DNA of 64,000 nt from SAR324 cluster bacterium (GTDB lineage: Bacteria > SAR324 > NAC60-12): contig JADFZZ010000006.1 in the NCBI GenBank assembly GCA_015232315.1, forward strand, positions 94,600-158,599, written 5' to 3'. The notes under the pieces are model-generated. The model saw nothing but the letters and a program-made list of their open reading frames with translations. It searched no databases and had not been told where the DNA came from. Position 1 is the stretch's first letter; each line of letters begins with the position of its first letter. Positions 3,516 to 55,927 of the stretch are shown in pieces. Both the position numbers and the translations under genes were made by a program.

Positions 3516-4763
3516 ATGCACCAGCAAATATTCTCTTCTCAAATATCCAGATTGCCAGTTTGGGCAATATTTCAGCGATTTTTTTTAAATCACCCTTCTG
3601 AATTATTGGTTCATGCTATTGCAACTCTTGGTCTTATGGCCAGAATTTCCTGGAAAGAGCAGGGTTTTCAGCACGAAGAAATCCAGTATATGGCTAGTCA
3701 ACTGGCTGAAATTCTAAATATTAGCCAGGAAGAAGTTAATTCATTGATACTTGAACTCAAAGCAATTCAATGGCGAACTTCTTTTGCTGAAAAGCAACTT
3801 TTTGAGCAATTTTTCAGGTTTGAGTGTGATCGTTCTACCAGAAATGCCTTGTTGAGATCATTGCTGGGAATGGCTGGTTGTGACAAAGCTCTGACGGAGC
3901 GTGAATGTGCCATCATCTTGAGAACAGTGCAATCCATTGGACTTTCCCTGACGGAGTATAAAATGGCTGTTTTGCCATATACGTCTGTTCTTGTATCGGC
4001 TCAGGCTGGATTGAATAAATATATTTTAAATGCAGCAGGTAATGAAAATGTACAAATATATTGCCAGAATAAAATCGTGACTCAGGAGTTGGAAAATATA
4101 TCTCTGGCAGAATTGACCTTTAGAAGTAATAAGAAAATATCTGTTGGTACTTTGATTCAGATTAGTCTTTTTTCCTATATATCCATTATATCTTATGTGT
4201 CACGTGCAAAGAAAGAAGATGGTCAGTGGGTGATCAGCCTTGATTTGGATCTTAATCCTGTGGAGTGTGGGTATTTGGATAATCTGCTCCACATGGGGTC
4301 AATCAATCAGCCTGAAATCAGCCTGAAAACGACATTTGCATCTTGCCAACAATTGCCTGAACAACTGCTGGGATACTTATGGAATAGTATGCCTGATTCC
4401 AGAGCAGATATGGCTATGTCTTTGAAGAAAATGATTGAATCCCGGAAAGTGCTACCCAATTTGATTTTCAGTGATATTCAGGCTTGGCATGCTGATTTAC
4501 TGAAAACACAGATGGAAAAACGAAATATTTTGTTTGGCAATCCGGATTGGGATGTGATTGGACAACAACTGGATCAGGAATTTTCTGAGCCATTGTCAGT
4601 GATTATAAAGCTTCAATTACTGAGTCTGATCCGATGGATATTGCCCAAGGGATTATGGAAAAAAAAGGTGTTTTCGACATCGGAAATGGCAGTTATCAAA
4701 CCTATGATGGAACAATTAGGATTATCCCCTGAAAAATGGAGTTTAGAGAGGGCTGCAATATGA
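3516..4763 (+). CDS. Hypothetical protein (N-terminal region weakly TerB/DjlA-N-like), first gene of an SBP-cyclase operon
   Basis: 415-aa ORF without hallmark catalytic motifs. Its stop overlaps the start of the downstream solute-binding protein gene (ATGA at 4760-4763), indicating translational coupling. Confidence 0.45.
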   Translation: MHQQIFSSQISRLPVWAIFQRFFLNHPSELLVHAIATLGLMARISWKEQGFQHEEIQYMASQLAEILNISQEEVNSLILELKAIQWRTSFAEKQLFEQFFRFECDRSTRNALLRSLLGMAGCDKALTERECAIILRTVQSIGLSLTEYKMAVLPYTSVLVSAQAGLNKYILNAAGNENVQIYCQNKIVTQELENISLAELTFRSNKKISVGTLIQISLFSYISIISYVSRAKKEDGQWVISLDLDLNPVECGYLDNLLHMGSINQPEISLKTTFASCQQLPEQLLGYLWNSMPDSRADMAMSLKKMIESRKVLPNLIFSDIQAWHADLLKTQMEKRNILFGNPDWDVIGQQLDQEFSEPLSVIIKLQLLSLIRWILPKGLWKKKVFSTSEMAVIKPMMEQLGLSPEKWSLERAAI

Positions 4764-6343
4764 GGTGTGGGTTCTCAGATGCTATTTTCAGGAAAATATT
4801 GCAATCGGGATTTCTGGTTTTTACAATCATGATCATGGGTCTGATTCCTGATCTCTGGGGGATAACTCCACAGTATGGTGGAACATTTATTTACCGGGCG
4901 CCAGATAAGGTTCAAATACTTGATCCGCCTAGAATTGAAGACAATGTCAGTTATAATATTTCAGGCAATATCTATGAGGGTTTAGTACGATATCAGGGTG
5001 AGTCTGCGATTATTGAACCTTCCTTGGCCACACGTTGGGAAGTCTCAAAAGATGGATTGTATTGGACGTTTTTTTTGAGACATGAAGTAGTTTTTCATGA
5101 CAATACAAAGCTTAACGCAAATGCTGTCTTATTTTCATTCATGAGACAGATGGATGAGCATCATCCGTATTATCGAGATGATTTTCTTTATAAAGATGTC
5201 ATTTTCAGCCATGTAAAATCCCTTAGCGTTCTGGATGAATACACCATACAGTTTGAACTTTCCAAACCGTTCAGTCCATTTTTGCATCTACTGACTATGC
5301 CTCCAGCAAGGATCGTATCTCCCGATGCTGTCATGAAAAATCCAGATGAGTTTGGACTGCATCCTGTGGGAACGGGTCCTTTTTATGTCAAGGAATGGAC
5401 TGAGCGTGATTTGGTGCTTGAACCATTCGGTGCGCATTGGGAGGGGCGTCCTTATCTGGATCGGGTCATCATTCAACCTGCAAAATATTTGAAGACGATG
5501 CTTCTAAGTATGAGGCAAGGTAATCTTCACCTTTCAGAAGGGGTTACCAGTCGTGAACTATTATGGGTTCGTGGTGATTCTGAAATAAAAATGAAAAAAA
5601 CCGCGGCCAATTCGATCAAATTTATAGTTTTCCACACCCAAAAACCTCCATTAAACGACATTAGAATCCGTCGAGCTCTTCAAGATGTTTTGAACCGCAA
5701 AGGTTTGGTGAGTTGGTTATGGCAAGATAATGCGCTGCCGACCAATTCACCTGTTCCCCCAAGCAACTGGGCCTACAAAGCGGTTGATATTCCTGTGCAG
5801 AATCTTGAAAAAGCTAAAGAGTTGCTGAATGAAGTCATAACAGAACCGTTATCACTGAAAGTGGTTATGTTGCAAACCCGTGATACAGCATGGGAACGTT
5901 TTTTTGAGAGTTTTTCAGCGGCATGTTCACAGGTGAATGTTCAATTGAATGTGAAGACGTTAAAAGGAAAAGACTATCTTCAGGCAATGAAAACCGGCGA
6001 TTATGATCTAATCTGGATGGGATGGTCTGGAGATCATGCGGATCCTGACAATTTTGTCTATCCCTTGCTTCATTCCATTAATGCGTATCCGGGAAGTTTT
6101 TCAAATTTATCTTATTACAGTAATCCCGTTATGGATGAATTGATTGAAAATGCTCAACGGGAAACCGTCATGGAAAAACGTCAACAGCTATATTATAAAA
6201 TTCAGGAAATACTGGTTGAAGAAATTCCATGGATTCCGATACTTGTTCCACAGAATATTTATCTGTATCACCATTCTGTTCAGGATGTCAGTGTTACTGT
6301 GACCGGGAGGGTAAAGCTCGAAAAAATCTGGATTGAGAAATAA
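4760..6343 (+). CDS. ABC-type substrate-binding protein, family 5 (DppA/OppA/NikA-like), orphan (no permease/ATPase genes adjacent)
   Basis: Signal peptide after the M at 4760 (MRCGFSDAIFRKILQSGFLVFTIMIMGLIP). Family-5 SBP-like segments (GTGPFYVKEW, WSGDHADPDNF). Start placed at 4760 because of ATGA coupling with the upstream ORF. Confidence 0.75.
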   Translation: MRCGFSDAIFRKILQSGFLVFTIMIMGLIPDLWGITPQYGGTFIYRAPDKVQILDPPRIEDNVSYNISGNIYEGLVRYQGESAIIEPSLATRWEVSKDGLYWTFFLRHEVVFHDNTKLNANAVLFSFMRQMDEHHPYYRDDFLYKDVIFSHVKSLSVLDEYTIQFELSKPFSPFLHLLTMPPARIVSPDAVMKNPDEFGLHPVGTGPFYVKEWTERDLVLEPFGAHWEGRPYLDRVIIQPAKYLKTMLLSMRQGNLHLSEGVTSRELLWVRGDSEIKMKKTAANSIKFIVFHTQKPPLNDIRIRRALQDVLNRKGLVSWLWQDNALPTNSPVPPSNWAYKAVDIPVQNLEKAKELLNEVITEPLSLKVVMLQTRDTAWERFFESFSAACSQVNVQLNVKTLKGKDYLQAMKTGDYDLIWMGWSGDHADPDNFVYPLLHSINAYPGSFSNLSYYSNPVMDELIENAQRETVMEKRQQLYYKIQEILVEEIPWIPILVPQNIYLYHHSVQDVSVTVTGRVKLEKIWIEK

Positions 6344-6345
6344 TC

Positions 6346-8310
6346 ATGCGTTGGTCCATCAAATATAAAATCATTATCCTTGCTGTTGCGGTATCGTTGT
6401 TGGCGGCATTCGTGGTGACATGGGTGAGCATTCGTCAGGTCACGTTGCAGGTCAACAAACAGTTGAATGAAACAGGCCAGGGCCTTCTTGAAAGCGTGCA
6501 GAATCATATTCGACAGGATCTGGAAAAAGCAGAAAGATTTGCAGATTTATTAGCGACTCATCATCAACTACGTGAATATCTTTTGCATCATGATGCGGAA
6601 ACACTGGTTTCATGGTTGAACAAACAATCTGAAATGGAGATATATGCGTTGCTTGAAATATTTGATCGGGAGGGGAACCGTGTTGCGGTTAACCGATGGC
6701 TGAACAAGGACAGTGATGAATTGACGCCCTATTTGACCGATCAGAAAGACCCTGTTTTACAAGCAGCTCTGAAGTATCAAATATCTGCTGAAATCAAACA
6801 ATTGACACAAGGTTTGTCCATTCGGGTGACAGTTCCGATTGTGGATATTATCACGATTAAGGTTCTGGGGGTTTGTGTGGTGAGTTTCCCCATGAATTAT
6901 GACTGGATAGATCGAATCAGGGCTGAATCTCCCTATCATTTGGCTTTGATTGCCAACAGCCAGTCTAAATTAGCAACCAGCGTGATCACTCCAGAAGGTC
7001 GACGTATGGAAGAACTACCTGTTGAAATTTCCCAAAATATATCGGGCGATTTACCGGGGCAAATTGAACAAATATCATTGTTTGATCATTCCTATATGGT
7101 TCTGTTTGCGCCGATTTATGATCCGCGTTCCATTGCCCAGGGACAAATGATTGCCTTGATGCAGAGAGATTTGATCGAATCCACAACGGAACAGATTCTG
7201 AATGTACTGGTTTTTGTGGCATTGGCCACTGTTTTGGGGTGTGTGATCCTTGGAACTTTTGTTGCATACGGCATGACCAAACCTTTGCAACGTTTGATGG
7301 AAGCCATGCACCGGATTGCTGAAGGGGATCTGGACCAGACCATTAAAGTGAGTTCCAGAGATGAGATTGGTGAGCTAACACAGGCCGCTCAATGGATGCA
7401 GGATGAATTGAGAACCATCCAGGATCTTGTGGACAAGATGTTACAAACATTTCAATTGTTTGTGCCAACTCAGTTTCTAAGACATATCGCACATGATGGC
7501 ATCGAAAATGTGAAGTTGGGAAATGCCCAACAGGAAACAGTCTCTGTCCTGTTTTCAGATATCCGTGGTTTTACGACAATTTCAGAATCCATGTCTCCAC
7601 AGCAGTTGCTGGATTTTCTCAATCTTTTGTTTCGGCAGGTCGGAAAAGCCATTGAACAATATGGTTTTATTGACAAGTTTATTGGAGACGCGGTGATGGC
7701 TGTTTTTGAAGGGGAAGCAGAAGATTACAGCGGAGCGCAAAATGCGGTGACTACCGCGTTGATTATGCAAACAGCGTTGCAGAAATTCAGAAATGAAAAT
7801 CATTCACCCGTAGAAATCGGGATTGGAATTAACACTGGACCTGTGGTGATTGGAACGGTTGGAACCTCAAGCAGGATGGATTCAACTGTGCTGGGAGATA
7901 CCGTCAATCTGGCATCCCGCATGGAAGGGTTGACCAAAAATTATGGAGGGTCGTTGCTGATTTCGGAAAATACATTCAAACAGCTTCCAAACACCCACTG
8001 TTTTCAGATTCGAGCTGTTGACAAGGTTAGAGTGAAAGGTAAAAAAGAACCGATTACTGTGTATGAAGTATTTGATAATGATTCTCCTCCAGTTCTTGAA
8101 AAAAAACTGGGTATTCAGAATTTTCTCGAACAGGGACAAGCATTGTATTACTCTCGGCAGTGGCAAGAAGCTCTCGATTTATTTCAGAAATGTTTCAACC
8201 TTTTCCCGGAAGATGTAGTGAGCCAAATGTATTTGGATCGTTGCCGGGAATTTTTCCATCATCCCCCTCCCGGAGATTGGGATGGTGTCATTAGTATGAA
8301 AACAAAATGA
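6346..8310 (+). CDS. Membrane sensor class-III adenylate/guanylate cyclase with periplasmic sensor domain, HAMP domain and C-terminal TPR-like region
   Basis: N-terminal TM, a ~270-aa periplasmic region and a second TM (LNVLVFVALATVLGCVILGTFVAY). HAMP-like segment (RIAEGDLDQTIKVSSRDEIGELTQAAQWMQDEL). Class III cyclase motifs FSDIRGFTTISE and GDAVMAVF. Starts 3 nt after the SBP stop. Confidence 0.8.
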   Translation: MRWSIKYKIIILAVAVSLLAAFVVTWVSIRQVTLQVNKQLNETGQGLLESVQNHIRQDLEKAERFADLLATHHQLREYLLHHDAETLVSWLNKQSEMEIYALLEIFDREGNRVAVNRWLNKDSDELTPYLTDQKDPVLQAALKYQISAEIKQLTQGLSIRVTVPIVDIITIKVLGVCVVSFPMNYDWIDRIRAESPYHLALIANSQSKLATSVITPEGRRMEELPVEISQNISGDLPGQIEQISLFDHSYMVLFAPIYDPRSIAQGQMIALMQRDLIESTTEQILNVLVFVALATVLGCVILGTFVAYGMTKPLQRLMEAMHRIAEGDLDQTIKVSSRDEIGELTQAAQWMQDELRTIQDLVDKMLQTFQLFVPTQFLRHIAHDGIENVKLGNAQQETVSVLFSDIRGFTTISESMSPQQLLDFLNLLFRQVGKAIEQYGFIDKFIGDAVMAVFEGEAEDYSGAQNAVTTALIMQTALQKFRNENHSPVEIGIGINTGPVVIGTVGTSSRMDSTVLGDTVNLASRMEGLTKNYGGSLLISENTFKQLPNTHCFQIRAVDKVRVKGKKEPITVYEVFDNDSPPVLEKKLGIQNFLEQGQALYYSRQWQEALDLFQKCFNLFPEDVVSQMYLDRCREFFHHPPPGDWDGVISMKTK

Positions 8311-11300
8311 CTACAATTTATCGTTTTGTGTGGATATTAGGGATATGGAGCGTTCTTCATGGCATGATTCCCGGATTGATTTGGGCGGAAGAAGAAGGCT
8401 CAGCTAAGGGTAAACTGGCTGAACTTGAATGGCACACAATCGAAACCAGACACTTTTTCGTCCATTATCATGATGATATCGAAGAACTGGCACGCCTTTG
8501 CACTGTGTATGCTGAAGAATCTCATGAAATTCTCGCCCCCTTGCTGGATTGGGAACCCCAGCAAAAAACACACATGATTATTACCGATATTCTGGATAAT
8601 CAGGATGGCAACGCACGCAATCTCCCTTATCCCATTTTACGAATTTATCCTTATCCGCCAACAATCAACAGTGCCATTGCTGAATATGAGAGCAGTGATT
8701 GGCTGCGTATCCTGATTTTACATGAATATGTCCACATTCTGAATCTGGACACAGTGGCGGGATATTCCAAAGTAGTGAGAGACTGGTTTGGTCGACCGGG
8801 GATTGCGTTCAATCCTTTAGCGGCAACGGGGTTTCTCCATCTGAACAGTCCAAATAACTTTGCTCCTCCCTGGTTGACAGAAGGATTGGCTGTATATCTT
8901 GAAACAGAACTGACTCACTCAGGACGGGGGATTAGTCCTAAGTCAGAAATGCTGTTCAGGATGGGAACGAAATTGAATGATTTGATCAGCCTGGACCAAC
9001 TTGATTTTTATCGTTTGGGATTTCCAGGACAACATGCGTCCAGATATATTTATGGAGCCTATTTCCTTGATTATCTGATCAGTGAAAGATCTCCTGAATA
9101 TGTTGGGAAACTCAATCATCTTCTGGCTGAATGGCCTCCATACATGGGAATACATATGCTGGAAGATGAATCAGGAGCCTATCTGGTAGCGGCTTATGAA
9201 CGTTTTCTGGAATACACCAGGACAGAGCATGAGAAACGGTTGGCGATTCTTGAAACTCAGTCTTTGACCCAGTTTCAGGGAATCCAGACGCATGGTTTTT
9301 TACAACGAAATTTTGCGCTGTCTCCAGATGAACGAAAAATGGCCTTTGTCCTGATTGATGTCAAAGGACAGAAACATTTAAAACTGTGGCGGGAATATCC
9401 ATTGACCGGGGGTTATTTCAGGGAACTGGCTCCGGCAGCAACTCAGGATGACCGATGGATTTATACGACATCTCAGGGAATTCCTGTTGAAGAATTTGAA
9501 ACTTTAACCAATCAGGATGCACTTTCACTCAGTTGGCATCCTTCTGAAAAATATTTATTTTATACCGCCCTGTCTCCAGAAGGAATATATTCATTTCAGG
9601 AGCTTTTCGTTTATGACTTTAAAACCGCAAAAACACATCAACTGACCACAAATGCCAGAATTGGGGATGTGGATGTGTCACCTGACGGCAAATTTCTGAT
9701 TGGTGTTGAAAGCGGGAAAGGGCATCAAAATCTGGTTCTGTATGAATTGACGGAAATCCCTGATTCTGGTGATAAACCACCATTTAAGGCAATGCGTCTG
9801 GATGTCTTGACCAAGCATCAATATTCTCGTGTGAGTCAACCCAAATGGGATCATCAGGGAAAAAGACTGGTGTATTCCCTGTCTGATCGCAAAGGGGATA
9901 CTTTTCTGCCCATTATTGACATGGAATCCCGTCAGGAAATCAAGATTATCTCTCAGGGACACCTCCAATCTAATCCAGTCTGGGAACCTGGGGACAATGC
10001 CATTCTGTTTAGTTCTGATCACACTGGAGTCAGCAATATCTATCGTTACAGTCTGGAGTCAGAGGTCATGCTACCCATCACTCATGTTCTTGGTGGAGCG
10101 TTGGAACCTGTGATTTCAAGGCGAAAGGAAAGACTTTATTTTCAGAATTTTTATGGAGAAGGACTGGAACTGGCGTTTATTGAATGGAAAGCGGGGCAAA
10201 CACGTTCAGAACCTTTGCCACAAATCACGCCTGTCTGGAAGCACCAACCGGAATTGGCTGTGGTGCGGGATGGTTCTGTCACCCAATCTGTGACAGAACC
10301 ACAGGAGCCTTATTCTCCGTGGCAGAGCATGTTTCCGCAGTTCTGGTTTATTTATGCTGAAGATGCTCCGGGAGGTTACGCCTGGGGTTTGATCACAGCC
10401 GGGGTTGATGCGCTGGAAGAACAAGGGTATTACGGTGCGGTAACGTATGGAGAGGGGCAACCTTATTACCGGTTTTCCTATTATACAGACCACTGGTATC
10501 CAAATCTGAGTTTTTCATCTTCATTGCTTCCGCAACGATATTCCAAAATTCCTAATTTGAGACAGGGGTGGGAATTGCTGCAGGAACATGTTGTAGGTAT
10601 TTCCTTCAAGCTGGATGACTGGTCTTTGGGGTTTAATTACCTCAATACCACAGAAACTCCATATGAAGACAGCGGGTTTCTGACTGAAGCCAATAAACGC
10701 GCTACCGAAAAATTGGCTACAGCACAAAATCCTTACCGAAGTGTCGGAGATTATTTCAAGCGTCGGACCTTTACCGGCAATCATCAAGGATTCAATTTGT
10801 TTTCCTCCTATTCTACAGTGTCTCATTTTCCCACGTCAATCAGTGAGGAATCCGGAAGCTATTTTTCGGTTGGTTATACGCATTATCCCACGTCTTTAGG
10901 TGATAATCCTGAAATAAAAACATTGGCCGGGGAAGATTTTGATGCGGCGGTACTGTACATGGAAAATACAGATCCGGGATTCAGCTACGATCAGCTCACA
11001 CCTAGACGGGCAGAAACCCTTGCCAGTCTCCTCCATGCAAAAGAACAACTGGTGTCTAATGAGTATCAATTGCTGACAACCAGTTATGGCCACTTTTTTT
11101 CATCGCCCTGGCCCAGGAATGTGTTCCATTGGAATTTGAATGGGGGGGTTGGATTGAATGGAAGCGAGCTATCTGCGGAATTCATGACCAGAGTCAACAT
11201 TCCAGTTCGTGGTTACAAATATGATCTGGAAACCGCTCGTCAATATATCAGCCAGACCATAGAATGGCGTATGCCGTTAGGGAGTGTTTTCAGAGGAATA

Positions 11301-11606
11301 GGTTTGATCCCTTTTTATTCGGAACAGGTGCATACCGCATTGTTTTATGATTATGCGGTATTTAGTGGGGGGTATACCGCCACAGACATTTATATTGGGG
11401 ATGAATCATTTTTATTACGTGATGACCAGGGGGTGGCCACCCGTCGTGGGACTGGTTTTGAGCTTAAGCTGAGGAGCAAATATGGTTATCGTTTTCCTGT
11501 AGACCTGATTGTCAGGTATTCCTATGCTCCTGATATCAACAATATCGCGGGTATCGACGGCAAGAAGGGCTATCTGCTTGAACTGGATTATGAAACATCG
11601 TTTTAA
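8307..11606 (+). CDS. Large outer-membrane protein: signal peptide, HExxH metallopeptidase-like region, TolB-like beta-propeller repeats, C-terminal beta-barrel
   Basis: ATGA overlap with the cyclase stop (8307-8310). Signal peptide MTTIYRFVWILGIWSVLHG. HEYVH (HExxH) at about residue 140. Repeated propeller-like blades (DVSPDGKFLIGVESGKG, WDHQGKRLVYSLSDRKGD, WEPGDNAILFSSDHTGVSNIYRY). Alternating amphipathic C-terminal strands ending in ...LELDYETSF, an OM beta-barrel terminal Phe signature. Confidence 0.55.
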   Translation: MTTIYRFVWILGIWSVLHGMIPGLIWAEEEGSAKGKLAELEWHTIETRHFFVHYHDDIEELARLCTVYAEESHEILAPLLDWEPQQKTHMIITDILDNQDGNARNLPYPILRIYPYPPTINSAIAEYESSDWLRILILHEYVHILNLDTVAGYSKVVRDWFGRPGIAFNPLAATGFLHLNSPNNFAPPWLTEGLAVYLETELTHSGRGISPKSEMLFRMGTKLNDLISLDQLDFYRLGFPGQHASRYIYGAYFLDYLISERSPEYVGKLNHLLAEWPPYMGIHMLEDESGAYLVAAYERFLEYTRTEHEKRLAILETQSLTQFQGIQTHGFLQRNFALSPDERKMAFVLIDVKGQKHLKLWREYPLTGGYFRELAPAATQDDRWIYTTSQGIPVEEFETLTNQDALSLSWHPSEKYLFYTALSPEGIYSFQELFVYDFKTAKTHQLTTNARIGDVDVSPDGKFLIGVESGKGHQNLVLYELTEIPDSGDKPPFKAMRLDVLTKHQYSRVSQPKWDHQGKRLVYSLSDRKGDTFLPIIDMESRQEIKIISQGHLQSNPVWEPGDNAILFSSDHTGVSNIYRYSLESEVMLPITHVLGGALEPVISRRKERLYFQNFYGEGLELAFIEWKAGQTRSEPLPQITPVWKHQPELAVVRDGSVTQSVTEPQEPYSPWQSMFPQFWFIYAEDAPGGYAWGLITAGVDALEEQGYYGAVTYGEGQPYYRFSYYTDHWYPNLSFSSSLLPQRYSKIPNLRQGWELLQEHVVGISFKLDDWSLGFNYLNTTETPYEDSGFLTEANKRATEKLATAQNPYRSVGDYFKRRTFTGNHQGFNLFSSYSTVSHFPTSISEESGSYFSVGYTHYPTSLGDNPEIKTLAGEDFDAAVLYMENTDPGFSYDQLTPRRAETLASLLHAKEQLVSNEYQLLTTSYGHFFSSPWPRNVFHWNLNGGVGLNGSELSAEFMTRVNIPVRGYKYDLETARQYISQTIEWRMPLGSVFRGIGLIPFYSEQVHTALFYDYAVFSGGYTATDIYIGDESFLLRDDQGVATRRGTGFELKLRSKYGYRFPVDLIVRYSYAPDINNIAGIDGKKGYLLELDYETSF

Positions 11607-17870: not shown

Positions 17871-17951
17871 ATATTTTATAATTGTGTTTCTCTGATGTGC
17901 GGTTTTTCCAGACTACTAACCAGAAATTCTTTTGCAAGGCCGCATGATTCC

Positions 17952-20738
17952 ATGAGGGCTGTAATTAGTTTTTTTGTTATCATTTTCTGGTTGTTGCCGC
18001 TACAAAATTTATTTGCCCAGAATAATGACTGGCCTCATTATAAAATTGAGGTTCACTATCACGATGAATCCAGGGTGTTGCAAGGAAAATGTTCAATCAC
18101 CTTTAACCCTCAGATTTATTCTGGACGTGAATTGATAGTGAGTTTGCCTATGAACCGTTTTGCTTCGATTGATCACCGGGGCACACGTAAAATTTTGGAA
18201 ACTCCTGTTTTTGCATTAGATTCTTACAGCAGACTGAAAGATGATCCTTTGTTTCCCTATGGGTTCCAAAAAGGATTTACCAAGATTGACTCTCTTACAG
18301 ATACCAACAACCGGCCAATTCCATTTTCCATCGAGAATAACCCGGATCTGCCTGTTGGATACAGCACGGAACATGGACTATTACGAGTTTCTCTTGAAGA
18401 GGCAATTCCTGAAAATACGCTTGTTTTTGAATTTACTACCAAATTGCCGGTACGGTTTCAGGACGGACTTGTCTTTAAGGAATTGATGGTAGTTGAATGG
18501 CACCCAGTTTTGCTGTCCTACAAGCATGGAACATGGATAAAGGATATGATGGAACCATCTCCTGGAATCTATGAAGTCATGTGGACTGCTGATACTACAG
18601 GACTTTTAATCACTTCGGCTGGAGATCTGGAATACGGCCAAGCCAGGCAACATGTCAAACTTGAACAAGTCCAGCCGCTCAAATATTTTCCACTGATTTT
18701 CTCACCGAATTATTCTCGATTGAATACTGGACATCCGGTAATCGAGTCCTATTATTTTTCAGAAGATCTACGTCGTGCCCAATTACTACAGATCTGGGGG
18801 GAAGAATTTCTTGATTATATGGCCTCTGAATTTGATTTGAAGCAACCGTGGGACAAAATCAGAATAGTGGAGGTGAGAGGCAATTATGAAGATATCAGGG
18901 TTGTCAATAATCTCATATTGGTCACGATTCCTCATTACAAACGCAGCACCTTTATGGACAGGCGAGTATTGGGCTTTTTTTCGCGTGGTATGGCAGAATT
19001 ATGGTTTGGTGAGAAGGTTTGGGCCAATGAGGATACGCAATTATGGTTGCATATGGGACTGCCAGCCTTTTTCAGTCTGAAATTTTTTGAATATAAATAT
19101 GGGCTTGACGCTAGAATTTTTGATTTTTTTGACTGGCTGAATCCTCACTATCGGGAGCACTTTTTTGAAAGCATGGTGCGCGGAGTGAATCCGGCTTTGG
19201 AAGTACCGATTATGTCTAAAATTTCAAAGTTATCCGACTATCGGGTCTATCTGAAATTTGCGACTTATAAGACAGCATTGGTATTTTCCATGTTACAGTA
19301 TCTGACCGGAAATGCTGCTTTCAGGAAAGGACTTCGTCATTTTTTTGAAAATAATCAGTATCAGGTGGTGACCTTAAAGGATATTCATCAATCTATGGAG
19401 CAAATGTATCCTGAACCGCTGGATTGGTTTTTTTTGCAATGGTTCTATACCACAGATACAATGGATTACGGGATTCGTGAATTCACGTATGATGAATTGC
19501 CAGCGGGAGGATATGAAGTCAGGGTTGTTATTGAAAAAAAAGACAAAGGACAGATGCCGGTTGATGTTGTTATTGAAACCGAAGATGAGCAGGTGATCCA
19601 TAAACGCGCATTGGGAAATCAGGATATTGAGATGATCCGATTTATTACCGTCTCTCCTCCTGTATCCATATCTTTGGATCCTGATGAAATATTATTGGAG
19701 ACTGATAGACAAAACAACCAATCATTTCATTATTTCAGAGTCCGTTTTGCGTTTGACTGGCAGAAAAACAGGGAAATTCTGATCACGTTGGTTCCTAGAG
19801 GAAGCAGTAATGCATTTGATGGCAACCATATTGGTTTGGAAACCAGACATGTTATTGGTGATTATATCTATAATGTGACACCTGGCTATGGAACAAAAAA
19901 CGAACAGCTTACCTATCAATCCTCTGTTGAACGAAGGAATTTGTTGGGAATTAAGGGGTTTGTCGCCAATGTTAATCTTTCCCGGATTGGAGGTATTTTA
20001 TCGAAAGGAGTGGGACTCCTTTATAGTTCGCCTCAACATCAGGAAAAATACTCTTACAATTATGCCGTCAATCTGGCCCAGCAAGCAGCTTTTAAAGCCA
20101 GAAAAACGTCGTCAGGTATCTCTTCAGATATCATTGAAACAGGGGATACCAGCAATATTTCCATATCACATACCAGCAACATTGGATTTGGAAATATATA
20201 TTATCTGGAATTCAATCTGGGATTCGAAAAACCAGTTCTCGCATTGGGGTCTGATTTTGACTACACACTTTGGACTGCTAAAATCCAGCATGCGATCAAA
20301 ACAGGTTTTCGTAAAAGAATTGACTGGGAATGGATAGGGGGAACGACCCAAGGAACCAGTCCATTACAGAAACATCACCAACTTGGCAGTCCAACGGTAT
20401 TGAGAGGTTATCCCCAAAGGACAATCCTGCGGGATGAAAATTTGCTGGCAATGCGGTGTGATTTTTCATTTCCGGTTATTTCTTCACAGTGGTGGGGGGA
20501 TATCTCATCACTTGGAGTTTTAGGAGGTATTTTTTATGATATGGGTAAAGTTTGGGGTAATGATGTGAATCCTGCGGATGTACCACTTCGTCAGGATGTT
20601 GGTGTTGGTCTGGTATGGAACATCAATGCCGTTTCATTGGCAGAAGCCCCCTTGAAAATTGAAGTTGCCTACCCTCTCAATGATCCGGAATTTACCAAGC
20701 CACAGCTTATTCTATTTGAAGTATTAAGCATTTTTTAA
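17952..20738 (+). CDS. Large outer-membrane protein with N-terminal gluzincin/M1-peptidase-like domain (zinc motif degenerate) and C-terminal beta-barrel
   Basis: Start set at the internal ATG at 17952, giving signal peptide MRAVISFFVIIFWLLPLQNLFAQ. The segment GMAELWFGEKVWANEDTQLWLHMGL resembles the M1 HExxH-x18-E region but lacks the two His. C-terminal ~350 aa are alternating beta-strand-like and end in ...FEVLSIF. Confidence 0.5.
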   Translation: MRAVISFFVIIFWLLPLQNLFAQNNDWPHYKIEVHYHDESRVLQGKCSITFNPQIYSGRELIVSLPMNRFASIDHRGTRKILETPVFALDSYSRLKDDPLFPYGFQKGFTKIDSLTDTNNRPIPFSIENNPDLPVGYSTEHGLLRVSLEEAIPENTLVFEFTTKLPVRFQDGLVFKELMVVEWHPVLLSYKHGTWIKDMMEPSPGIYEVMWTADTTGLLITSAGDLEYGQARQHVKLEQVQPLKYFPLIFSPNYSRLNTGHPVIESYYFSEDLRRAQLLQIWGEEFLDYMASEFDLKQPWDKIRIVEVRGNYEDIRVVNNLILVTIPHYKRSTFMDRRVLGFFSRGMAELWFGEKVWANEDTQLWLHMGLPAFFSLKFFEYKYGLDARIFDFFDWLNPHYREHFFESMVRGVNPALEVPIMSKISKLSDYRVYLKFATYKTALVFSMLQYLTGNAAFRKGLRHFFENNQYQVVTLKDIHQSMEQMYPEPLDWFFLQWFYTTDTMDYGIREFTYDELPAGGYEVRVVIEKKDKGQMPVDVVIETEDEQVIHKRALGNQDIEMIRFITVSPPVSISLDPDEILLETDRQNNQSFHYFRVRFAFDWQKNREILITLVPRGSSNAFDGNHIGLETRHVIGDYIYNVTPGYGTKNEQLTYQSSVERRNLLGIKGFVANVNLSRIGGILSKGVGLLYSSPQHQEKYSYNYAVNLAQQAAFKARKTSSGISSDIIETGDTSNISISHTSNIGFGNIYYLEFNLGFEKPVLALGSDFDYTLWTAKIQHAIKTGFRKRIDWEWIGGTTQGTSPLQKHHQLGSPTVLRGYPQRTILRDENLLAMRCDFSFPVISSQWWGDISSLGVLGGIFYDMGKVWGNDVNPADVPLRQDVGVGLVWNINAVSLAEAPLKIEVAYPLNDPEFTKPQLILFEVLSIF

Positions 20739-53573: not shown

Positions 53574-55037
53574 ATGGCAGCTATTGAAGAATATGTAAAT
53601 AACCTTCCTAATATATCAGGACAGGAATCATTGGTGGAAGCATCAATCCAGCAAAGTAGAGGCAAAAAGCTGTTTGTGGACAAGGCCGGGATGAATTTTG
53701 AGCATTTAAAAAGTGTATTTGCGGTAGCGCTTCATATGCAACAGCCTTTAATTCCTGCTGGAGGGAACGATCTCAAGACCGCTGAAATTATCAGTAACCT
53801 TAAATATATGATGGACAATCAGCATCTTGGCGATAATCATAATGCCCCTGTTTTTCAATGGTGCTACAAACGAATGGGCGAAATAATTCCACAACTGATT
53901 TCAGAAGGAAAAAAACCAAGAGTCATGCTTGAATATACAGGCGTCCTCTTTCATGGACTGAGGAATATGGGTGCGCATGATGTGATTGATGCCTTGAAAA
54001 CAATTACATGTCGGCCTGAATATCAGGACTGTGTGGAATGGTTGGGATGCCCATGGGGACATGCCGTGGCTCCTTCGACTCCTGTCCAGGATTTTCGTCT
54101 GCATGTAAAAGCCTGGCAGCATCATTTTGCCGCCATTTTTGGTTTTGAAGCATTGGAACGGGTAAGAGGGTTTTCTCCTTCGGAAATGGCTCTGCCCAAT
54201 CATCCTGATGTGGCCTATGAATTTGTGAAAACGCTCAAGGATTGTGGGTATCAATGGGTTCTGGTTCAGGAGCATACTGTAGAAATGGCAGAAAATGGAG
54301 GGGGTATTCAACAGAAACATCTTCCACATCAACTTGTTTGTAAAAATTCAAAAGGTGATTCTGCCAGTATCATCGCCATCATCAAAACACAGGGGAGTGA
54401 CACCAAACTGGTTGCGCAAATGCAACCTTATTATGAGGCAAAAAGCCTGAATCAATGGCAGTTGTGCGGCAAATCAATTCCTCCACTGGTTACTCAGATT
54501 GCGGATGGTGAAAATGGGGGGGTGATGATGAATGAGTTTCCATCAAAGTATATTGAGGTGATCCGGGAATGTTCCCATTCACAGGTTCCGGCAATGAACG
54601 TGAGTGAATATCTGGAATATTTATTCGGGATGGGGATTAAAGAACAGGACTTACCCAAAATCCAACCGGTGATGCAACATCATATCTGGGCACGTTTTAC
54701 CCCTGGTAATGGTGCCGACCGCCTAAGAGAGGTGATTGAAGCATTGAAAAAAGAGGACCAGCGGTTTCATATGGATGGTGGAAGCTGGACCAATAATATT
54801 TCATGGGTACATGGATATGACAATGTGTTGGGGCCTATGGAGCAGGTGAGTTCTCTCTTTTTTGAAAAAGTATTGAAAACTTCAGTTTCCACCAATTCTC
54901 ATGCCTATCGAAATGCCCTGTTTCATTTGTTGTCCTCGCAAACCAGTTGTTATCGATATTGGGGACAGGGACTATGGACAGACTATGGACAGGAAATTTG
55001 CAGAAGGGCTATTGAGATCCTGAATCATGATTTCTGA
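53574..55037 (+). CDS. GH57-family-like protein (second copy, divergent)
   Basis: GH57-like regions FSPSEMAL and VTQIADGENGGVMMNEF. Start set at ATG 53574, which has a strong AGGAGG RBS 7 nt upstream. The ORF track's start at 53544 lacks an RBS. Confidence 0.5.
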   Translation: MAAIEEYVNNLPNISGQESLVEASIQQSRGKKLFVDKAGMNFEHLKSVFAVALHMQQPLIPAGGNDLKTAEIISNLKYMMDNQHLGDNHNAPVFQWCYKRMGEIIPQLISEGKKPRVMLEYTGVLFHGLRNMGAHDVIDALKTITCRPEYQDCVEWLGCPWGHAVAPSTPVQDFRLHVKAWQHHFAAIFGFEALERVRGFSPSEMALPNHPDVAYEFVKTLKDCGYQWVLVQEHTVEMAENGGGIQQKHLPHQLVCKNSKGDSASIIAIIKTQGSDTKLVAQMQPYYEAKSLNQWQLCGKSIPPLVTQIADGENGGVMMNEFPSKYIEVIRECSHSQVPAMNVSEYLEYLFGMGIKEQDLPKIQPVMQHHIWARFTPGNGADRLREVIEALKKEDQRFHMDGGSWTNNISWVHGYDNVLGPMEQVSSLFFEKVLKTSVSTNSHAYRNALFHLLSSQTSCYRYWGQGLWTDYGQEICRRAIEILNHDF

Positions 55038-55927
55038 AAGGCTGTGACAGGAAGTTTTTTTTCAAAAATAACGCAATTCCCTTTTTCGTTCCATCGCAGA
55101 GAGTCTGTCATGGAACGGACTAAATAAAGCCCTTTTCCAGAACTGGCCAGTAGAATTGTCGGATCTGTGAGGTCTGGTAATTTTGAGGTGTTAAATCCGT
55201 TGCCTTCATCTTCAATCTCAAATACAAATCGATCGCTCATTAAAAGATATCGAATCAAGACCTTTTTGTTTGCGTACTCTGGTAGCAGTTCCCGTTCTTT
55301 TTTTAAGCGGTTATATTCATCCCAGTTGTCTTCTTTGACTTGAGATGACAATCCGAAATTTCCATGCATGATCGCATTCGTAATGCATTCCGTCAGACAT
55401 AACACCAAATTGAAATCATGCATCTTGTAGCATTTGATCAAGGGCTCAATCCTGGCTTCAAAGTATGCAATAATGCGATAAGCCAGATTCATTTGACTGG
55501 GAATTTCCATTTGAGTCTGATCCTGGATCAAATAATTAATGGCATTATGAACCAGTTTTTTTCCATTGATTTTATCGGAAACTTTTTCAAGGGAATCAGC
55601 GAGAGCTTTGATTTTGAAAGGTTTGAGAATAAAATCTTCAGCACCCAGTTTAAGGGCTTCTATGGAAAGGTTGATGTCCCCGTGACCTGTGATGAACATG
55701 ACTGATAAATCAGCATAGTCCTGTCGGAGTTTTTTGATAAACTCAATACCACTCATGACAGGCATTTTAATATCTGTAAGTACCAGCTCTACTGTATCCG
55801 TTTGAAGATACTTAAGTCCTTCCATAGCATTTCCTGCCTGAATTACATGATGATGATAACGATCAGTCAATGCTGTTGCCAGCATTTGACGAAAGCTGTC
55901 TTCATCATCAACAAGCAGAATCTTCAT
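55025..55927 (-). CDS. Response-regulator receiver domain fused to an RsbW/SpoIIAB-like HATPase (anti-sigma-factor-type serine kinase)
   Basis: REC motifs (MKILLVDDE..., DIKMPVMSGIEF) followed by a GHKL-type segment (ECITNAIMHGNFG, DEGNGF). 300 aa. Confidence 0.65.
   Translation of the reverse strand: MKILLVDDEDSFRQMLATALTDRYHHHVIQAGNAMEGLKYLQTDTVELVLTDIKMPVMSGIEFIKKLRQDYADLSVMFITGHGDINLSIEALKLGAEDFILKPFKIKALADSLEKVSDKINGKKLVHNAINYLIQDQTQMEIPSQMNLAYRIIAYFEARIEPLIKCYKMHDFNLVLCLTECITNAIMHGNFGLSSQVKEDNWDEYNRLKKERELLPEYANKKVLIRYLLMSDRFVFEIEDEGNGFNTSKLPDLTDPTILLASSGKGLYLVRSMTDSLRWNEKGNCVIFEKKLPVTAFQKS

What the first reader, a model, noticed from the sequence alone, without database searches (positions are those of the whole stretch)
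3516..11606. Operon coupling an orphan solute-binding protein to a periplasmic-sensor HAMP nucleotidyl cyclase and a giant OM peptidase-like barrel protein
Four + strand genes are joined by start/stop overlaps or 3-nt gaps: the hypothetical protein to the SBP by ATGA at 4760, the SBP to the cyclase by a 3-nt gap, and the cyclase to the OM protein by ATGA at 8307. The family-5 SBP has no ABC permease or ATPase genes anywhere nearby. The adjacent cyclase has its own ~270-aa periplasmic domain between two TM helices. This arrangement fits an SBP acting as a ligand-presenting co-sensor for a cAMP/cGMP-producing transmembrane cyclase, in the way SBPs are known to feed some histidine kinases and chemoreceptors. 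Here the putative output is coupled to a 1099-aa outer-membrane protein. I do not recognise this combination as a described system.
Basis: partly seen in the sequence, partly recalled or inferred. Interest (0 to 1): 0.7.

Follow-up and report, generated by a model that had tools for sequence, protein, structure and literature searches.

The report
Binding-protein-coupled adenylate cyclase operon in SAR324
A rare group of uncultured marine SAR324 bacteria always encodes a peptide-type periplasmic binding protein, with no transporter genes nearby, directly in front of a membrane adenylate cyclase whose outer sensor domain is modelled to look like LuxQ, which suggests (but does not prove) that cAMP production here is controlled through a binding-protein co-sensor, a combination not listed among known systems.

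Summary
Four + strand genes are tightly joined: ATGA overlaps at 4760 and 8307, and a 2-nt gap (not 3) at 6344-6345. They encode a TerB protein with a degenerate PilZ-like region, a DppA/AibA-like family-5 SBP with a signal peptide, a receptor cyclase and a 1099-aa Omp85-barrel protein.

- **Cyclase:** TM, ~256-aa periplasmic tandem-PAS/dCache domain, TM, HAMP, class IIIb catalytic domain (Lys-Thr, so cAMP), TPR.
- **Large protein:** invariant HExxH...E peptidase, TolB-like propeller and Omp85 barrel.
- **No ABC transporter:** no permease or ATPase domain occurs anywhere in the 64 kb.
- **SBP-cyclase pair:** it is present in all seven related loci found, all attributable ones SAR324, in at least four genomic contexts. 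One is a duplicated pair whose cyclase has lost catalytic residues but kept the periplasmic domain.
- **Large protein linkage:** it neighbours the pair in five lineages, convergently in four, and is missing from two. It belongs to the catalogued WD40-Omp85 subfamily, so its link to the pair is weak.

Best reading: an SBP-dependent adenylate cyclase, a new variant of LuxPQ/ChiS-type sensing. Everything rests on comparative and structural inference. No interaction or activity was tested.

The parts
3516..4763 (+). TerB-domain protein (415 aa), apparently cytoplasmic. The TerB domain is aa 35-149 (nt 3618-3962). A degenerate PilZ-like region lies at about aa 165-255 (nt ~4008-4280).
   Evidence: Pfam TerB E 2e-8, above its cut-off. 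Orthologues in L002, L004 and L006 also hit PilZ (E 1.5e-4 to 4.3e-4, at or just under the cut-off) and carry RxxxR (RSFER/RSFKR) and D/NxSxxG (DISMSG/NISLSG). The window copy has AGNEN and NISLAE instead. It is only 22-25% identical to its orthologues. No TM helix stands out; the one hydrophobic stretch lies inside the PilZ-like region.
4760..6343 (+). Periplasmic family-5 solute-binding protein (527 aa) of the DppA/AibA type, with an N-terminal signal sequence.
   Evidence: SBP_bac_5 E 2e-77. The best NCBIfam matches (DppA, SapA, GsiB, NikA) are all far below their equivalog cut-offs. Best PDB match is 6ofq, H. pylori HbpA/AI-2 binding protein A (E 3e-67), then DppA. D425 aligns with DppA D408, and R374 aligns with an Arg of 6ofq; both are invariant in four orthologues. 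The orthogroup is sharply bounded: 50-65% identity, then 36% or less.
6346..8310 (+). Receptor-type class IIIb adenylate cyclase (654 aa). Parts: TM1 nt 6370-6426; periplasmic tandem-PAS/dCache domain 6427-7194; TM2 7195-7251; HAMP 7261-7413; catalytic domain 7528-8061; TPR 8128-8214.
8307..11606 (+). WD40-Omp85 type outer-membrane protein (1099 aa). Parts: signal peptide; gluzincin-like peptidase domain aa 42-315 (nt 8430-9251); TolB-like propeller aa 332-626 (nt 9300-10184); Omp85 barrel aa 666-1097 (nt 10302-11597), ending in Phe.
   Evidence: AF2 model with pLDDT 88.6 and pTM 0.86. Foldseek top hits are TolB. In a 45-sequence alignment H139, E140, H143, E192 (HExxH...E) and R968, G969 are invariant; R968-G969 lie in the sequence VRGY (aa 967-970), which I recognise as the Omp85 loop-6 motif. 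The family profile hits the barrel region of an Omp85-type PDB chain, 9ccg (7.5e-8), TamA (0.011) and TolB (5e-32). Distant homologues carry PF01103, and one carries PF13485. Membership of the SBP-cyclase module is uncertain.

Best explanation
The conserved core is a two-gene sensory unit.

**Proposed mechanism.**
1. A secreted DppA/AibA-like binding protein captures a small periplasmic ligand. This is probably a peptide-like molecule with free amino and carboxyl groups.
2. The binding protein docks on the LuxQ-like tandem-PAS periplasmic domain of the adjacent membrane cyclase.
3. The change is passed through TM2, HAMP and the linker helix to a homodimeric class IIIb catalytic domain.
4. cAMP synthesis is switched up or down.

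**What is shown.** Gene coupling, domain composition, intact catalytic and pocket residues, conserved pairing, lack of transporter genes nearby, and a modelled fold.

**What is inferred.** The SBP-sensor contact, the ligand class, the direction of regulation and cAMP as the product.

**Accessory genes.**
- The TerB-PilZ gene is a frequent, fast-evolving accessory of the operon. Its role is unknown. In sister genomes it may tie the unit to c-di-GMP.
- The Omp85-peptidase gene is a frequent neighbour. In this genome it is co-transcribed by overlap, but it is not a constant member.
For: **Pairing.**
- An SBP gene sits directly upstream of every member of this cyclase family found: the window, L001, L002, L004/L005, L006, L033 and the paralogue in L032.
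- The called genes overlap by 1-4 nt in L001, L002, L004 and L033. The window has a 2-nt gap and L032 a 66-nt gap. The exact junction in L006 was not resolved.
- Flanking genes differ between the window, the L002/L004/L006 group, L001 and L032.

**Duplication as a unit.** In L032 the SBP is 48-51% identical to the others and the periplasmic domain 42-45%. The catalytic region has dropped to 28-30%, with D405E, D448G, T514A and N521R. Selection there therefore acts on the SBP plus the periplasmic domain, not on catalysis.

**No transporter.** No ABC permease or ATPase lies in the 64 kb or next to the pair in the other loci.

**Fold.** The periplasmic domain is best matched by LuxQ, including LuxQ in its LuxP complex.

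**SBP relatives and pocket.** The closest solved relative is H. pylori AibA, listed in the review as the SBP partner of the Cache-type chemoreceptor TlpB. The pocket Asp equivalent to DppA D408 is invariant.

**Precedent.** SBP_bac_5 proteins already signal through dCache-like sensors, as in CBP-ChiS (PMC8050422).

**Specificity.** The two nearest non-SAR324 dCache_3-HAMP cyclases examined have no SBP neighbour. The pairing is therefore a derived trait of this clade, not a general habit of such cyclases.
Against: - No interaction, ligand or enzyme activity was tested.
Part of the synteny could therefore be inherited order.
- Adjacent sbp and sensor genes have been shown not to interact in P. 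aeruginosa (PMC11113362).
- Orphan family-5 SBPs can use a distant permease; E. coli MppA using the Opp permease is the example I know of, from my own knowledge. I could not search whole SAR324 genomes for dppBCDF.
- The correlation between SBP and periplasmic-domain identities (r = 0.96) comes from six related taxa and mostly reflects shared phylogeny.
Confidence: 0.55

Rival explanations
1. The SBP is an ordinary transport protein that has lost its local transporter and serves a Dpp/Opp-type ABC permease encoded elsewhere. The cyclase senses its own ligand directly in its dCache pocket. The two genes are co-transcribed only because both respond to the same nutrient.
For: - The binding pocket looks intact.
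- Orphan family-5 SBPs that use a distant permease exist; MppA with Opp is an example from my own knowledge.
- Adjacency of sbp and sensor genes is not always functional (PMC11113362).
Against: - The pair stays tightly coupled in seven loci and four or more contexts, with no transporter gene ever joining it.
- The pair was duplicated as a unit. The periplasmic domain was kept while catalysis decayed.
- The SBP orthogroup is separated from all transport-type relatives by a gap from 50% identity to 36% or less.
Confidence: 0.2
2. All four genes form one envelope-proteolysis sensing pathway. The Omp85-anchored metallopeptidase and propeller cleave envelope or external proteins. The released peptides are captured by the SBP and reported as cAMP. 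The TerB-PilZ protein links the pathway to c-di-GMP.
For: - The cyclase and Omp85 genes overlap by ATGA in the window.
- The Omp85 homologue lies next to the pair in five lineages.
- In L012 the closest homologue (49% identity) lies just downstream of another cyclase, a cyclase-TPR-PilZ fusion.
- The peptidase site HExxH...E is invariant in 45 homologues.
- The SBP is of the peptide-binding type.
Against: - The Omp85 gene is convergent, so not co-transcribed, in four of the five lineages.
- It is absent next to the pair in L001 and L032.
- In the genome of L001 the copy closest to those of L002, L004 and L006 (53-55% identity) sits on another contig beside a PAS kinase. Another copy sits beside a giant adhesin-like gene.
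- The wider family, in Gemmatimonadota, Myxococcota and other groups, is far more widespread than the cyclase.
Confidence: 0.12
3. The gene order is inherited from a common ancestor and has no functional meaning. The four genes have unrelated roles.
For: All attributable loci come from one clade of SAR324. L002, L004 and L006 share the same flanking genes (IspD, secretin, FxsA, UbiD).
Against: - Proteins are only 44-55% identical between the window and the others, and flanking genes differ between four groups of loci. Yet SBP and cyclase remain tightly coupled.
- The pair also survives as a duplicated unit.
Confidence: 0.08

Closest known systems
LuxP-LuxQ (Vibrio AI-2 sensing)
   Different: LuxP is not a family-5 SBP (own knowledge). 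LuxQ is a hybrid histidine kinase, whereas the output here is a class IIIb adenylate cyclase behind a HAMP domain. Sequence identity is only 14%.
CBP-ChiS (Vibrio chitin sensing) and AibA-TlpB (H. pylori AI-2 chemotaxis)
   Same: Both use family-5 (SBP_bac_5) binding proteins that signal through dCache-like or sCache receptors (PMC8050422). H. pylori AibA/HbpA (6ofq) is the closest solved relative of the window SBP.
   Different: The review tags CBP as associated with both transporter and signalling genes, and AibA with transporter genes; the window SBP has no transporter genes nearby. Their outputs are a histidine kinase and a chemoreceptor, not cAMP synthesis.
NspS-MbaA (V. cholerae polyamine sensing)
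   Same: An SBP tagged in the review as associated with signalling genes, whose partner is a second-messenger enzyme with a dCache-like periplasmic domain. This is the closest precedent in logic: an SBP controlling a nucleotide second messenger.
   Different: The SBP family is SBP_bac_8, and the output is GGDEF-EAL (c-di-GMP) rather than a class III cyclase (cAMP).
HAMP-containing class IIIb adenylate cyclases (mycobacterial Rv1319c/Rv3645 type; P. aeruginosa CyaB catalytic domain)
   Same: A HAMP domain followed by a class IIIb catalytic domain with the Lys-Thr substrate pair. CyaB (3r5g) is the best PDB match to the catalytic domain.
   Different: To my knowledge (not tested here), those enzymes have short or different membrane anchors and no dedicated SBP partner gene.
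WD40-Omp85 subfamily (Heinz & Lithgow 2014, PMC4104836)
   Same: An Omp85 barrel with an N-terminal TolB-like propeller in place of POTRA domains. A later paper summarises the subfamily as having 'divergent WD40 and peptidase domains'.
   Different: The subfamily is defined only by bioinformatics and its function is unknown. The link to a cyclase operon seen here has not been reported.

Membership tests
Class III nucleotidyl cyclase, subclass IIIb adenylate cyclase | Guanylate_cyc (PF00211) catalytic domain above the curated cut-off | tested here: met
   111.6 bits against a cut-off of 21.9, aa 395-572. Best PDB match is CyaB, 3r5g, E 4.5e-29.
Class III nucleotidyl cyclase, subclass IIIb adenylate cyclase | Two metal-binding Asp residues plus the transition-state Asn and Arg | tested here: met
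   D405, D448, N521 and R525 are present and invariant in the orthologues. Their assignment rests on the motif context FSDIRGFT, IGDAVM and VNLASR (own knowledge of the family).
Class III nucleotidyl cyclase, subclass IIIb adenylate cyclase | Adenine-specifying Lys with Thr in place of Asp (the IIIb pair) | tested here: met
   K444 and T514 are invariant in the orthologues. The query's RMDSTVLG aligns with CyaB's RMDYTIIG.
Class III nucleotidyl cyclase, subclass IIIb adenylate cyclase | Dimerisation and measurable ATP-to-cAMP activity | not testable with these tools
   Needs an enzyme assay or cya-minus complementation.
ABC-importer substrate-binding protein, family 5 (Dpp/Opp/Nik type) | SBP_bac_5 fold with a secretion signal | tested here: met
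   PF00496 at 261 bits. Hydrophobic N-terminus in all copies; L032 has a classic signal peptide ending VQA-QD.
ABC-importer substrate-binding protein, family 5 (Dpp/Opp/Nik type) | Encoded with cognate permease (BPD_transp_1) and ATPase (ABC_tran) genes | tested here: not met
   None in the 64-kb window. None beside the SBP in L001, L002, L004 or L032. The only ABC_tran gene in L032 has two ABC_tran domains plus ABC_tran_CTD, which I read as ABC-F type rather than an importer.
ABC-importer substrate-binding protein, family 5 (Dpp/Opp/Nik type) | Equivalog-level match to a named SBP (DppA, NikA, OppA, GsiB, SapA) | tested here: not met
   The best match, DppA, scores 192.6 bits against a cut-off of 1005. 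All others are also far below their cut-offs.
SBP-dependent transmembrane sensor (LuxPQ / CBP-ChiS / NspS-MbaA type) | sbp gene adjacent to the receptor gene, conserved across genomes | tested here: met
   7 of 7 loci. Called genes overlap by 1-4 nt in four loci, with a 2-nt gap in the window and a 66-nt gap in L032.
SBP-dependent transmembrane sensor (LuxPQ / CBP-ChiS / NspS-MbaA type) | Receptor has a folded extracytoplasmic PAS/Cache-type domain between two TM helices | tested here: met
SBP-dependent transmembrane sensor (LuxPQ / CBP-ChiS / NspS-MbaA type) | Physical SBP-receptor contact and SBP- or ligand-dependent output | not testable with these tools
   No multimer prediction or experiment was available. 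This is the decisive missing test.
Omp85 superfamily (WD40-Omp85 subfamily) | C-terminal Omp85-type beta-barrel | tested here: met
   The AF2 model shows an all-beta region at aa 666-1097. The family profile hits the barrel region of the Omp85-type chain 9ccg at E 7.5e-8 and TamA at 0.011. PF01103 is recorded on many homologues. The window protein alone gives no PF01103 hit at E <= 0.01.
Omp85 superfamily (WD40-Omp85 subfamily) | Conserved (V)RG(Y/F) loop-6 motif and a C-terminal aromatic residue | tested here: met
   The sequence reads VRGY at aa 967-970. R968 and G969 are invariant in 45 sequences. The protein ends ...YETSF. That this is the loop-6 motif is from my own knowledge.
Omp85 superfamily (WD40-Omp85 subfamily) | N-terminal POTRA domains (BamA/TamA/TpsB type) | tested here: not met
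   The N-terminal part is a peptidase domain followed by a TolB-like propeller. It is therefore not BamA or TamA. It fits the WD40-Omp85 subfamily.
Gluzincin (clan MA) zinc metallopeptidase | HExxH motif plus a downstream Glu ligand | tested here: met
   H139, E140, H143 and E192 are invariant in 45 homologues. The window protein itself has no Pfam peptidase hit. One homologue carries PF13485. Activity was not tested.
PilZ c-di-GMP receptor domain (first gene) | RxxxR and D/NxSxxG binding motifs | tested here: not met
   The window has AGNEN and NISLAE, and no Pfam PilZ hit even at E <= 5. Orthologues in L002, L004 and L006 have both motifs and PilZ hits at E 1.5e-4 to 4.3e-4.
TerB domain family (first gene) | PF05099 match above the cut-off | tested here: met
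   35 bits against a cut-off of 24.4, aa 35-149. Orthologues score 39-46 bits.

The most novel reading that the evidence does not exclude
The four genes form a previously undescribed envelope pathway. An Omp85-anchored zinc peptidase with a propeller generates peptides from misfolded envelope proteins or external proteins. A dedicated DppA-like binding protein reads these peptides and drives a LuxQ-like receptor adenylate cyclase. Catalytically dead cyclase paralogues, each with its own SBP, act as heterodimer partners or decoys. The TerB-PilZ protein cross-wires the pathway to c-di-GMP.
Probability: 0.1. Interest if true: 0.8.

Novelty: new variant of a known kind. Interest (0 to 1): 0.55.

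Why it matters
SBP-mediated signalling is established for chemoreceptors, histidine kinases, GGDEF/EAL enzymes and Ser/Thr kinases. The 2021 review of the field lists no adenylate cyclase. A confirmed SBP-dependent class III cyclase would add cAMP to the outputs that periplasmic binding proteins can control.

It would also be a split, bacterial counterpart of animal receptor guanylate cyclases, whose extracellular domain is, to my knowledge, itself of the periplasmic-binding-protein fold.

The system is easy to test, because cyclase output can be read in an E. coli cya-minus strain. That could also reveal what small molecule an abundant, uncultured deep-ocean lineage (SAR324) monitors.

The paired pseudo-cyclase paralogues are a natural experiment on which half of the receptor is under selection.

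Tried and rejected
- **Look-up of the window's own cyclase.** Neither the window cyclase nor its 100% match P0001 was on record, so I could not extend beyond the window ends.
- **Metagenome scan with the SBP alignment.** It returned only generic family-5 SBPs at 39% identity or less and added nothing.
- **Genome scan with the periplasmic-plus-HAMP alignment.** It gave only four species-level loci, all SAR324. This was useful as a rarity estimate but added only one new context.
- **The 945-aa HAMP protein upstream of the SBP in L001.** I asked whether it shares the cyclase's periplasmic domain, which would have been strong support. It does not; only the HAMP region matches weakly.
- **Two-paralogue model for the Omp85 genes.** A clean split into a cyclase-linked paralogue and a separate one is not supported. 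P0126 is closer to the L002/L004/L006 copies than the window copy is.
- **Foldseek on the whole 1099-aa model.** Results were dominated by propeller hits and said nothing about the barrel or the peptidase domain. Those rest on the profile search and invariant motifs.
- **Promoter and terminator scan.** Counts were no better than shuffled sequence, so there is no evidence on transcript ends.
- **Rfam and tRNA scans of the window.** Nothing found.
- **The second peptidase-Omp85 gene at 17895-20738.** It shows no sequence similarity to the 1099-aa protein.
- **Mirror-tree correlation of SBP against periplasmic domain.** r = 0.96, but I treat it as uninformative with six related taxa.
- **Literature searches.** SAR324 with adenylate cyclase, and SBP with adenylyl cyclase, HAMP and Cache, found no description of such a system.

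Full report
**1. What is in the sequence**

The window comes from a SAR324 cluster MAG. The cyclase and the large protein have 100% matches named as SAR324 proteins. Four + strand ORFs occupy 3516-11606.

I read the junctions directly:
- ATGA at 4760-4763 joins gene 1 to the SBP.
- The SBP stop TAA at 6341-6343 is followed by 'tc' and the cyclase ATG at 6346. This is a 2-nt gap, not the 3 nt reported.
- ATGA at 8307-8310 joins the cyclase to the fourth gene.
- After the fourth gene there are 80 nt before ccmC and then ccmE.

Upstream lie a GNAT acetyltransferase gene (+), an unknown gene on the minus strand (2262-2990) and an aldehyde dehydrogenase gene. Nothing further upstream can therefore share the transcript. 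The promoter and terminator scan gave no more sites than shuffled sequence. Rfam and tRNA scans found nothing.

**2. The four proteins**

*Gene 1 (415 aa).* It has a TerB domain (E 2e-8). Its orthologues in three sister genomes also hit PilZ at or just under the Pfam cut-off and carry both c-di-GMP-binding motifs (RxxxR and D/NxSxxG). The window copy has lost both motifs. It is the fastest-evolving member, at 22-25% identity to its orthologues, against 50-55% for the SBP and 51-52% for the cyclase.

*Gene 2 (527 aa).* It is a family-5 SBP (E 2e-77) with a hydrophobic N-terminal signal.
- It resembles DppA, SapA, GsiB and NikA but reaches none of their equivalog cut-offs.
- Its closest solved relative is H. 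pylori HbpA, also called AI-2 binding protein A (6ofq, E 3e-67), ahead of DppA.
- The residue aligned with DppA Asp408 is D425. From my own recollection of the DppA structures, Asp408 holds the peptide's amino terminus.
- R374 aligns with an Arg of 6ofq. Both D425 and R374 are invariant in the orthologues.
- The pocket therefore looks functional and peptide-like. This is an inference.

*Gene 3 (654 aa).*
- TM helices lie at aa 9-27 and 284-302.
- It has a HAMP domain, a Guanylate_cyc domain and a C-terminal TPR.
- All six canonical catalytic positions are present and invariant in the orthologues: D405 and D448 (metal), K444 and T514 (substrate), N521 and R525.
- Lys-Thr is the class IIIb adenylate cyclase pair. 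The best PDB match is P. aeruginosa CyaB. The expected product is cAMP.
- The periplasmic part gave sub-threshold dCache_3 and dCache_1 hits.
- An AlphaFold2 model of aa 29-282 (pLDDT 81.6, pTM 0.80) shows a long helix followed by two PAS-like alpha/beta modules.
- The domain is therefore folded and of the tandem-PAS/dCache type. The small margin over direct-binding sensors means the fold does not settle how it senses.

*Gene 4 (1099 aa).* It has a signal peptide and gave a confident AlphaFold2 model (pLDDT 88.6, pTM 0.86). The model has three parts: an alpha/beta domain (aa 42-315), a propeller (332-626) and a large barrel (666-1097).
- Foldseek and the profile search identify the propeller as TolB-like.
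- In a 45-sequence alignment the invariant columns include H139, E140, H143 and E192 (HExxH...E, a gluzincin site).
- R968 and G969 are also invariant. They lie in VRGY, which I recognise as the Omp85 loop-6 motif.
- The family profile hits the barrel region of an Omp85-type PDB chain, 9ccg (E 7.5e-8), and TamA (0.011).
- Many distant homologues carry PF01103, and one is named a BamA/TamA family protein.
- This architecture matches the WD40-Omp85 subfamily catalogued by Heinz and Lithgow in 2014. A 2024 paper summarises that subfamily as having WD40 and peptidase domains.
- The protein is therefore a member of a known but functionally uncharacterised kind.

**3. No transporter**

No LSGGQ or EAA motif occurs in any ORF of 100 aa or more. 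Pfam scans of 44 window ORFs, covering every ORF of 150 aa or more except small overlapping ones, show no ABC_tran or BPD_transp domain. They also show no cNMP-binding protein.

**4. Comparative evidence for the SBP-cyclase pair**

Full-length orthologues of the cyclase (51-54% identity) exist only in a handful of SAR324 assemblies and two unnamed contigs.
- A scan of one genome per GTDB species with the periplasmic-plus-HAMP alignment found four loci, all SAR324.
- A phmmer search of 1.84 billion cluster representatives with the periplasmic domain found only three clusters at E <= 1e-30.
- The weak hits beyond those that I scanned are mostly HAMP histidine kinases, several with dCache_3 or sCache_3 hits, plus one SpoIIE phosphatase.

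In every locus where a member of this cyclase family could be inspected, a family-5 SBP orthologue lies directly upstream.

| Locus | Upstream of the SBP | SBP-cyclase junction (called genes) | Omp85 homologue |
|---|---|---|---|
| Window | TerB gene, ATGA overlap | 2-nt gap | Same strand, ATGA overlap |
| L001 | 945-aa HAMP protein, DctP | 1-nt overlap | Not adjacent |
| L002 | TerB-PilZ, then REC-HATPase_c_2 | 4-nt overlap | Convergent, 1558 aa |
| L004/L005 | TerB-PilZ | 4-nt overlap | Convergent, 1074 aa |
| L006 | TerB-like | Not resolved | Convergent, ~1100 aa |
| L033 | Contig end | 4-nt overlap | Convergent, cut by contig end |
| L032 (paralogue pair) | Divergent REC-cNMP_binding kinase-like gene | 66-nt gap | Not adjacent |

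The flanking genes fall into at least four unrelated sets: the window, the L002/L004/L006 group, L001 and L032. The SBP orthogroup is sharply bounded, with 50-65% identity inside it and 36% or less to everything else.

The two nearest non-SAR324 cyclases of the same overall architecture have no SBP neighbour.

*The L032 paralogue.* This is the most telling case.
- Its SBP is 48-51% identical to the others and its periplasmic domain 42-45%. That is about as conserved as between true orthologues.
- The catalytic region has fallen to 28-30%.
- Four of the six catalytic positions are replaced: D405E, D448G, T514A and N521R.
- A third cluster, P0331, shows similar replacements at the aligned catalytic motifs, as I read the alignment. 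Its genomic context could not be looked up.

The SBP and the periplasmic domain have therefore been kept together, while enzymatic output was dispensable in the copy. This is what a physical partnership predicts.

**5. The accessory genes**

*TerB(-PilZ).* It lies upstream in four of the six lineages where the region upstream of the SBP could be inspected. It directly overlaps the SBP gene in the window and in L004.

*The Omp85 protein.*
- A homologue at 45-46% identity is the immediate neighbour of the cyclase in five lineages, but on the opposite strand in four of them.
- It is absent beside the pair in L001 and L032.
- In the L001 genome a copy 53-55% identical to those of L002, L004 and L006 sits on another contig, next to a PAS kinase and a response regulator.
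- Another SAR324 copy sits next to a giant Big_5/Laminin_G protein.
- In L012 the closest homologue (49%) follows a different cyclase, one carrying TPR and a C-terminal PilZ domain.

Cyclase, PilZ and this Omp85 protein therefore recur near each other in this clade. The Omp85 gene is nevertheless neither constant nor consistently co-transcribed. I treat it as a possible partner, not a demonstrated one.

**6. Mechanism and rivals**

The best-supported explanation (confidence about 0.55) is an SBP-dependent receptor adenylate cyclase. Ligand-loaded (or ligand-free) SBP docks on the LuxQ-like domain. HAMP and the linker helix transmit the change. The class IIIb dimer then changes its cAMP output.

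The rivals are:
- a transport SBP using a distant permease, with the cyclase sensing directly (about 0.2);
- a four-gene proteolysis-to-cAMP pathway that includes the Omp85 peptidase (about 0.12);
- inherited gene order without function (about 0.08).

A published caution applies. In P. aeruginosa, adjacent sbp and sensor kinase genes were found not to interact (PMC11113362).

**7. Comparison with what is known, and novelty**

The 2021 review of SBP signalling lists four receptor families stimulated by SBPs: chemoreceptors, sensor kinases, GGDEF/EAL enzymes and Ser/Thr kinases. It lists no adenylate cyclase. My other literature searches found none either.

The closest precedents are:
- LuxP-LuxQ, for the fold of the sensor;
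- CBP-ChiS and AibA-TlpB, for the SBP family;
- NspS-MbaA, for an SBP controlling a second-messenger enzyme.

The finding is thus a new variant of a known kind. It is confined to a small clade of uncultured bacteria and supported only by inference. It should be straightforward to test in E. coli. Interest: 0.55.

Noticed in passing
window 17895-20738 (+): A second peptidase-Omp85 fusion lies about 6 kb downstream. It is a 947-aa protein with a Peptidase_M1 domain (aa 304-516) and an Omp85 barrel (aa 703-937). BLASTP shows no similarity to the 1099-aa protein. Two different metallopeptidase-Omp85 proteins within 12 kb is unusual.
   Followed up: partly
L032 11654-13660 (GCA_015231535.1, contig JADGBI010000103), and protein P0331: These are catalytically degenerate paralogues of the cyclase ('pseudo-cyclases'). 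They keep the LuxQ-like periplasmic domain but have lost the metal-binding Asp residues. The L032 copy has its own SBP paralogue directly upstream.
   Followed up: partly
L032 7111-9648 (-): An 845-aa REC, cNMP_binding, PAS, Hpt, HATPase_c protein is encoded divergently from the paralogous SBP/pseudo-cyclase pair. It is a possible cyclic-nucleotide-responsive partner. No cNMP-binding gene was found in the window itself.
   Followed up: no
L012 2-1519 (+), Logan DRR203932 contig: A cyclase-TPR-PilZ fusion, cut at the contig end, lies directly upstream of the closest homologue (49%) of the large Omp85 protein. This links cyclase, PilZ and the Omp85 protein a second time.
   Followed up: partly
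window 55025-55927 (-); L002 7519-8403; C-terminal part of L001 5521-8358: REC plus HATPase_c_2 (anti-sigma-kinase-like) proteins recur near the module. One is inserted between TerB-PilZ and the SBP in L002. L001 has a 945-aa HAMP protein directly upstream of the SBP whose C-terminal part looks REC-like and HATPase_c_2-like by eye (only HAMP was confirmed by Pfam). A 36%-identical copy lies about 50 kb away in the window.
   Followed up: partly
window 56668-58011 and 58008-61286 (+): Two overlapping genes encode cyclophilin-parvulin (Pro_isomerase plus PPIC rotamase) fusion proteins. The second is 1092 aa, with a long unannotated middle region.
   Followed up: no
L002 11984-16660 (-): The Omp85-peptidase homologue in this genome carries an extra N-terminal extension of about 480 aa with SH3 domains, giving 1558 aa in total.
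   Followed up: no
window 3516-4763 compared with L002, L004 and L006 orthologues: The window's TerB protein has lost both c-di-GMP-binding PilZ motifs that its orthologues retain. It is far more diverged (22-25% identity) than the co-transcribed SBP and cyclase.
   Followed up: partly
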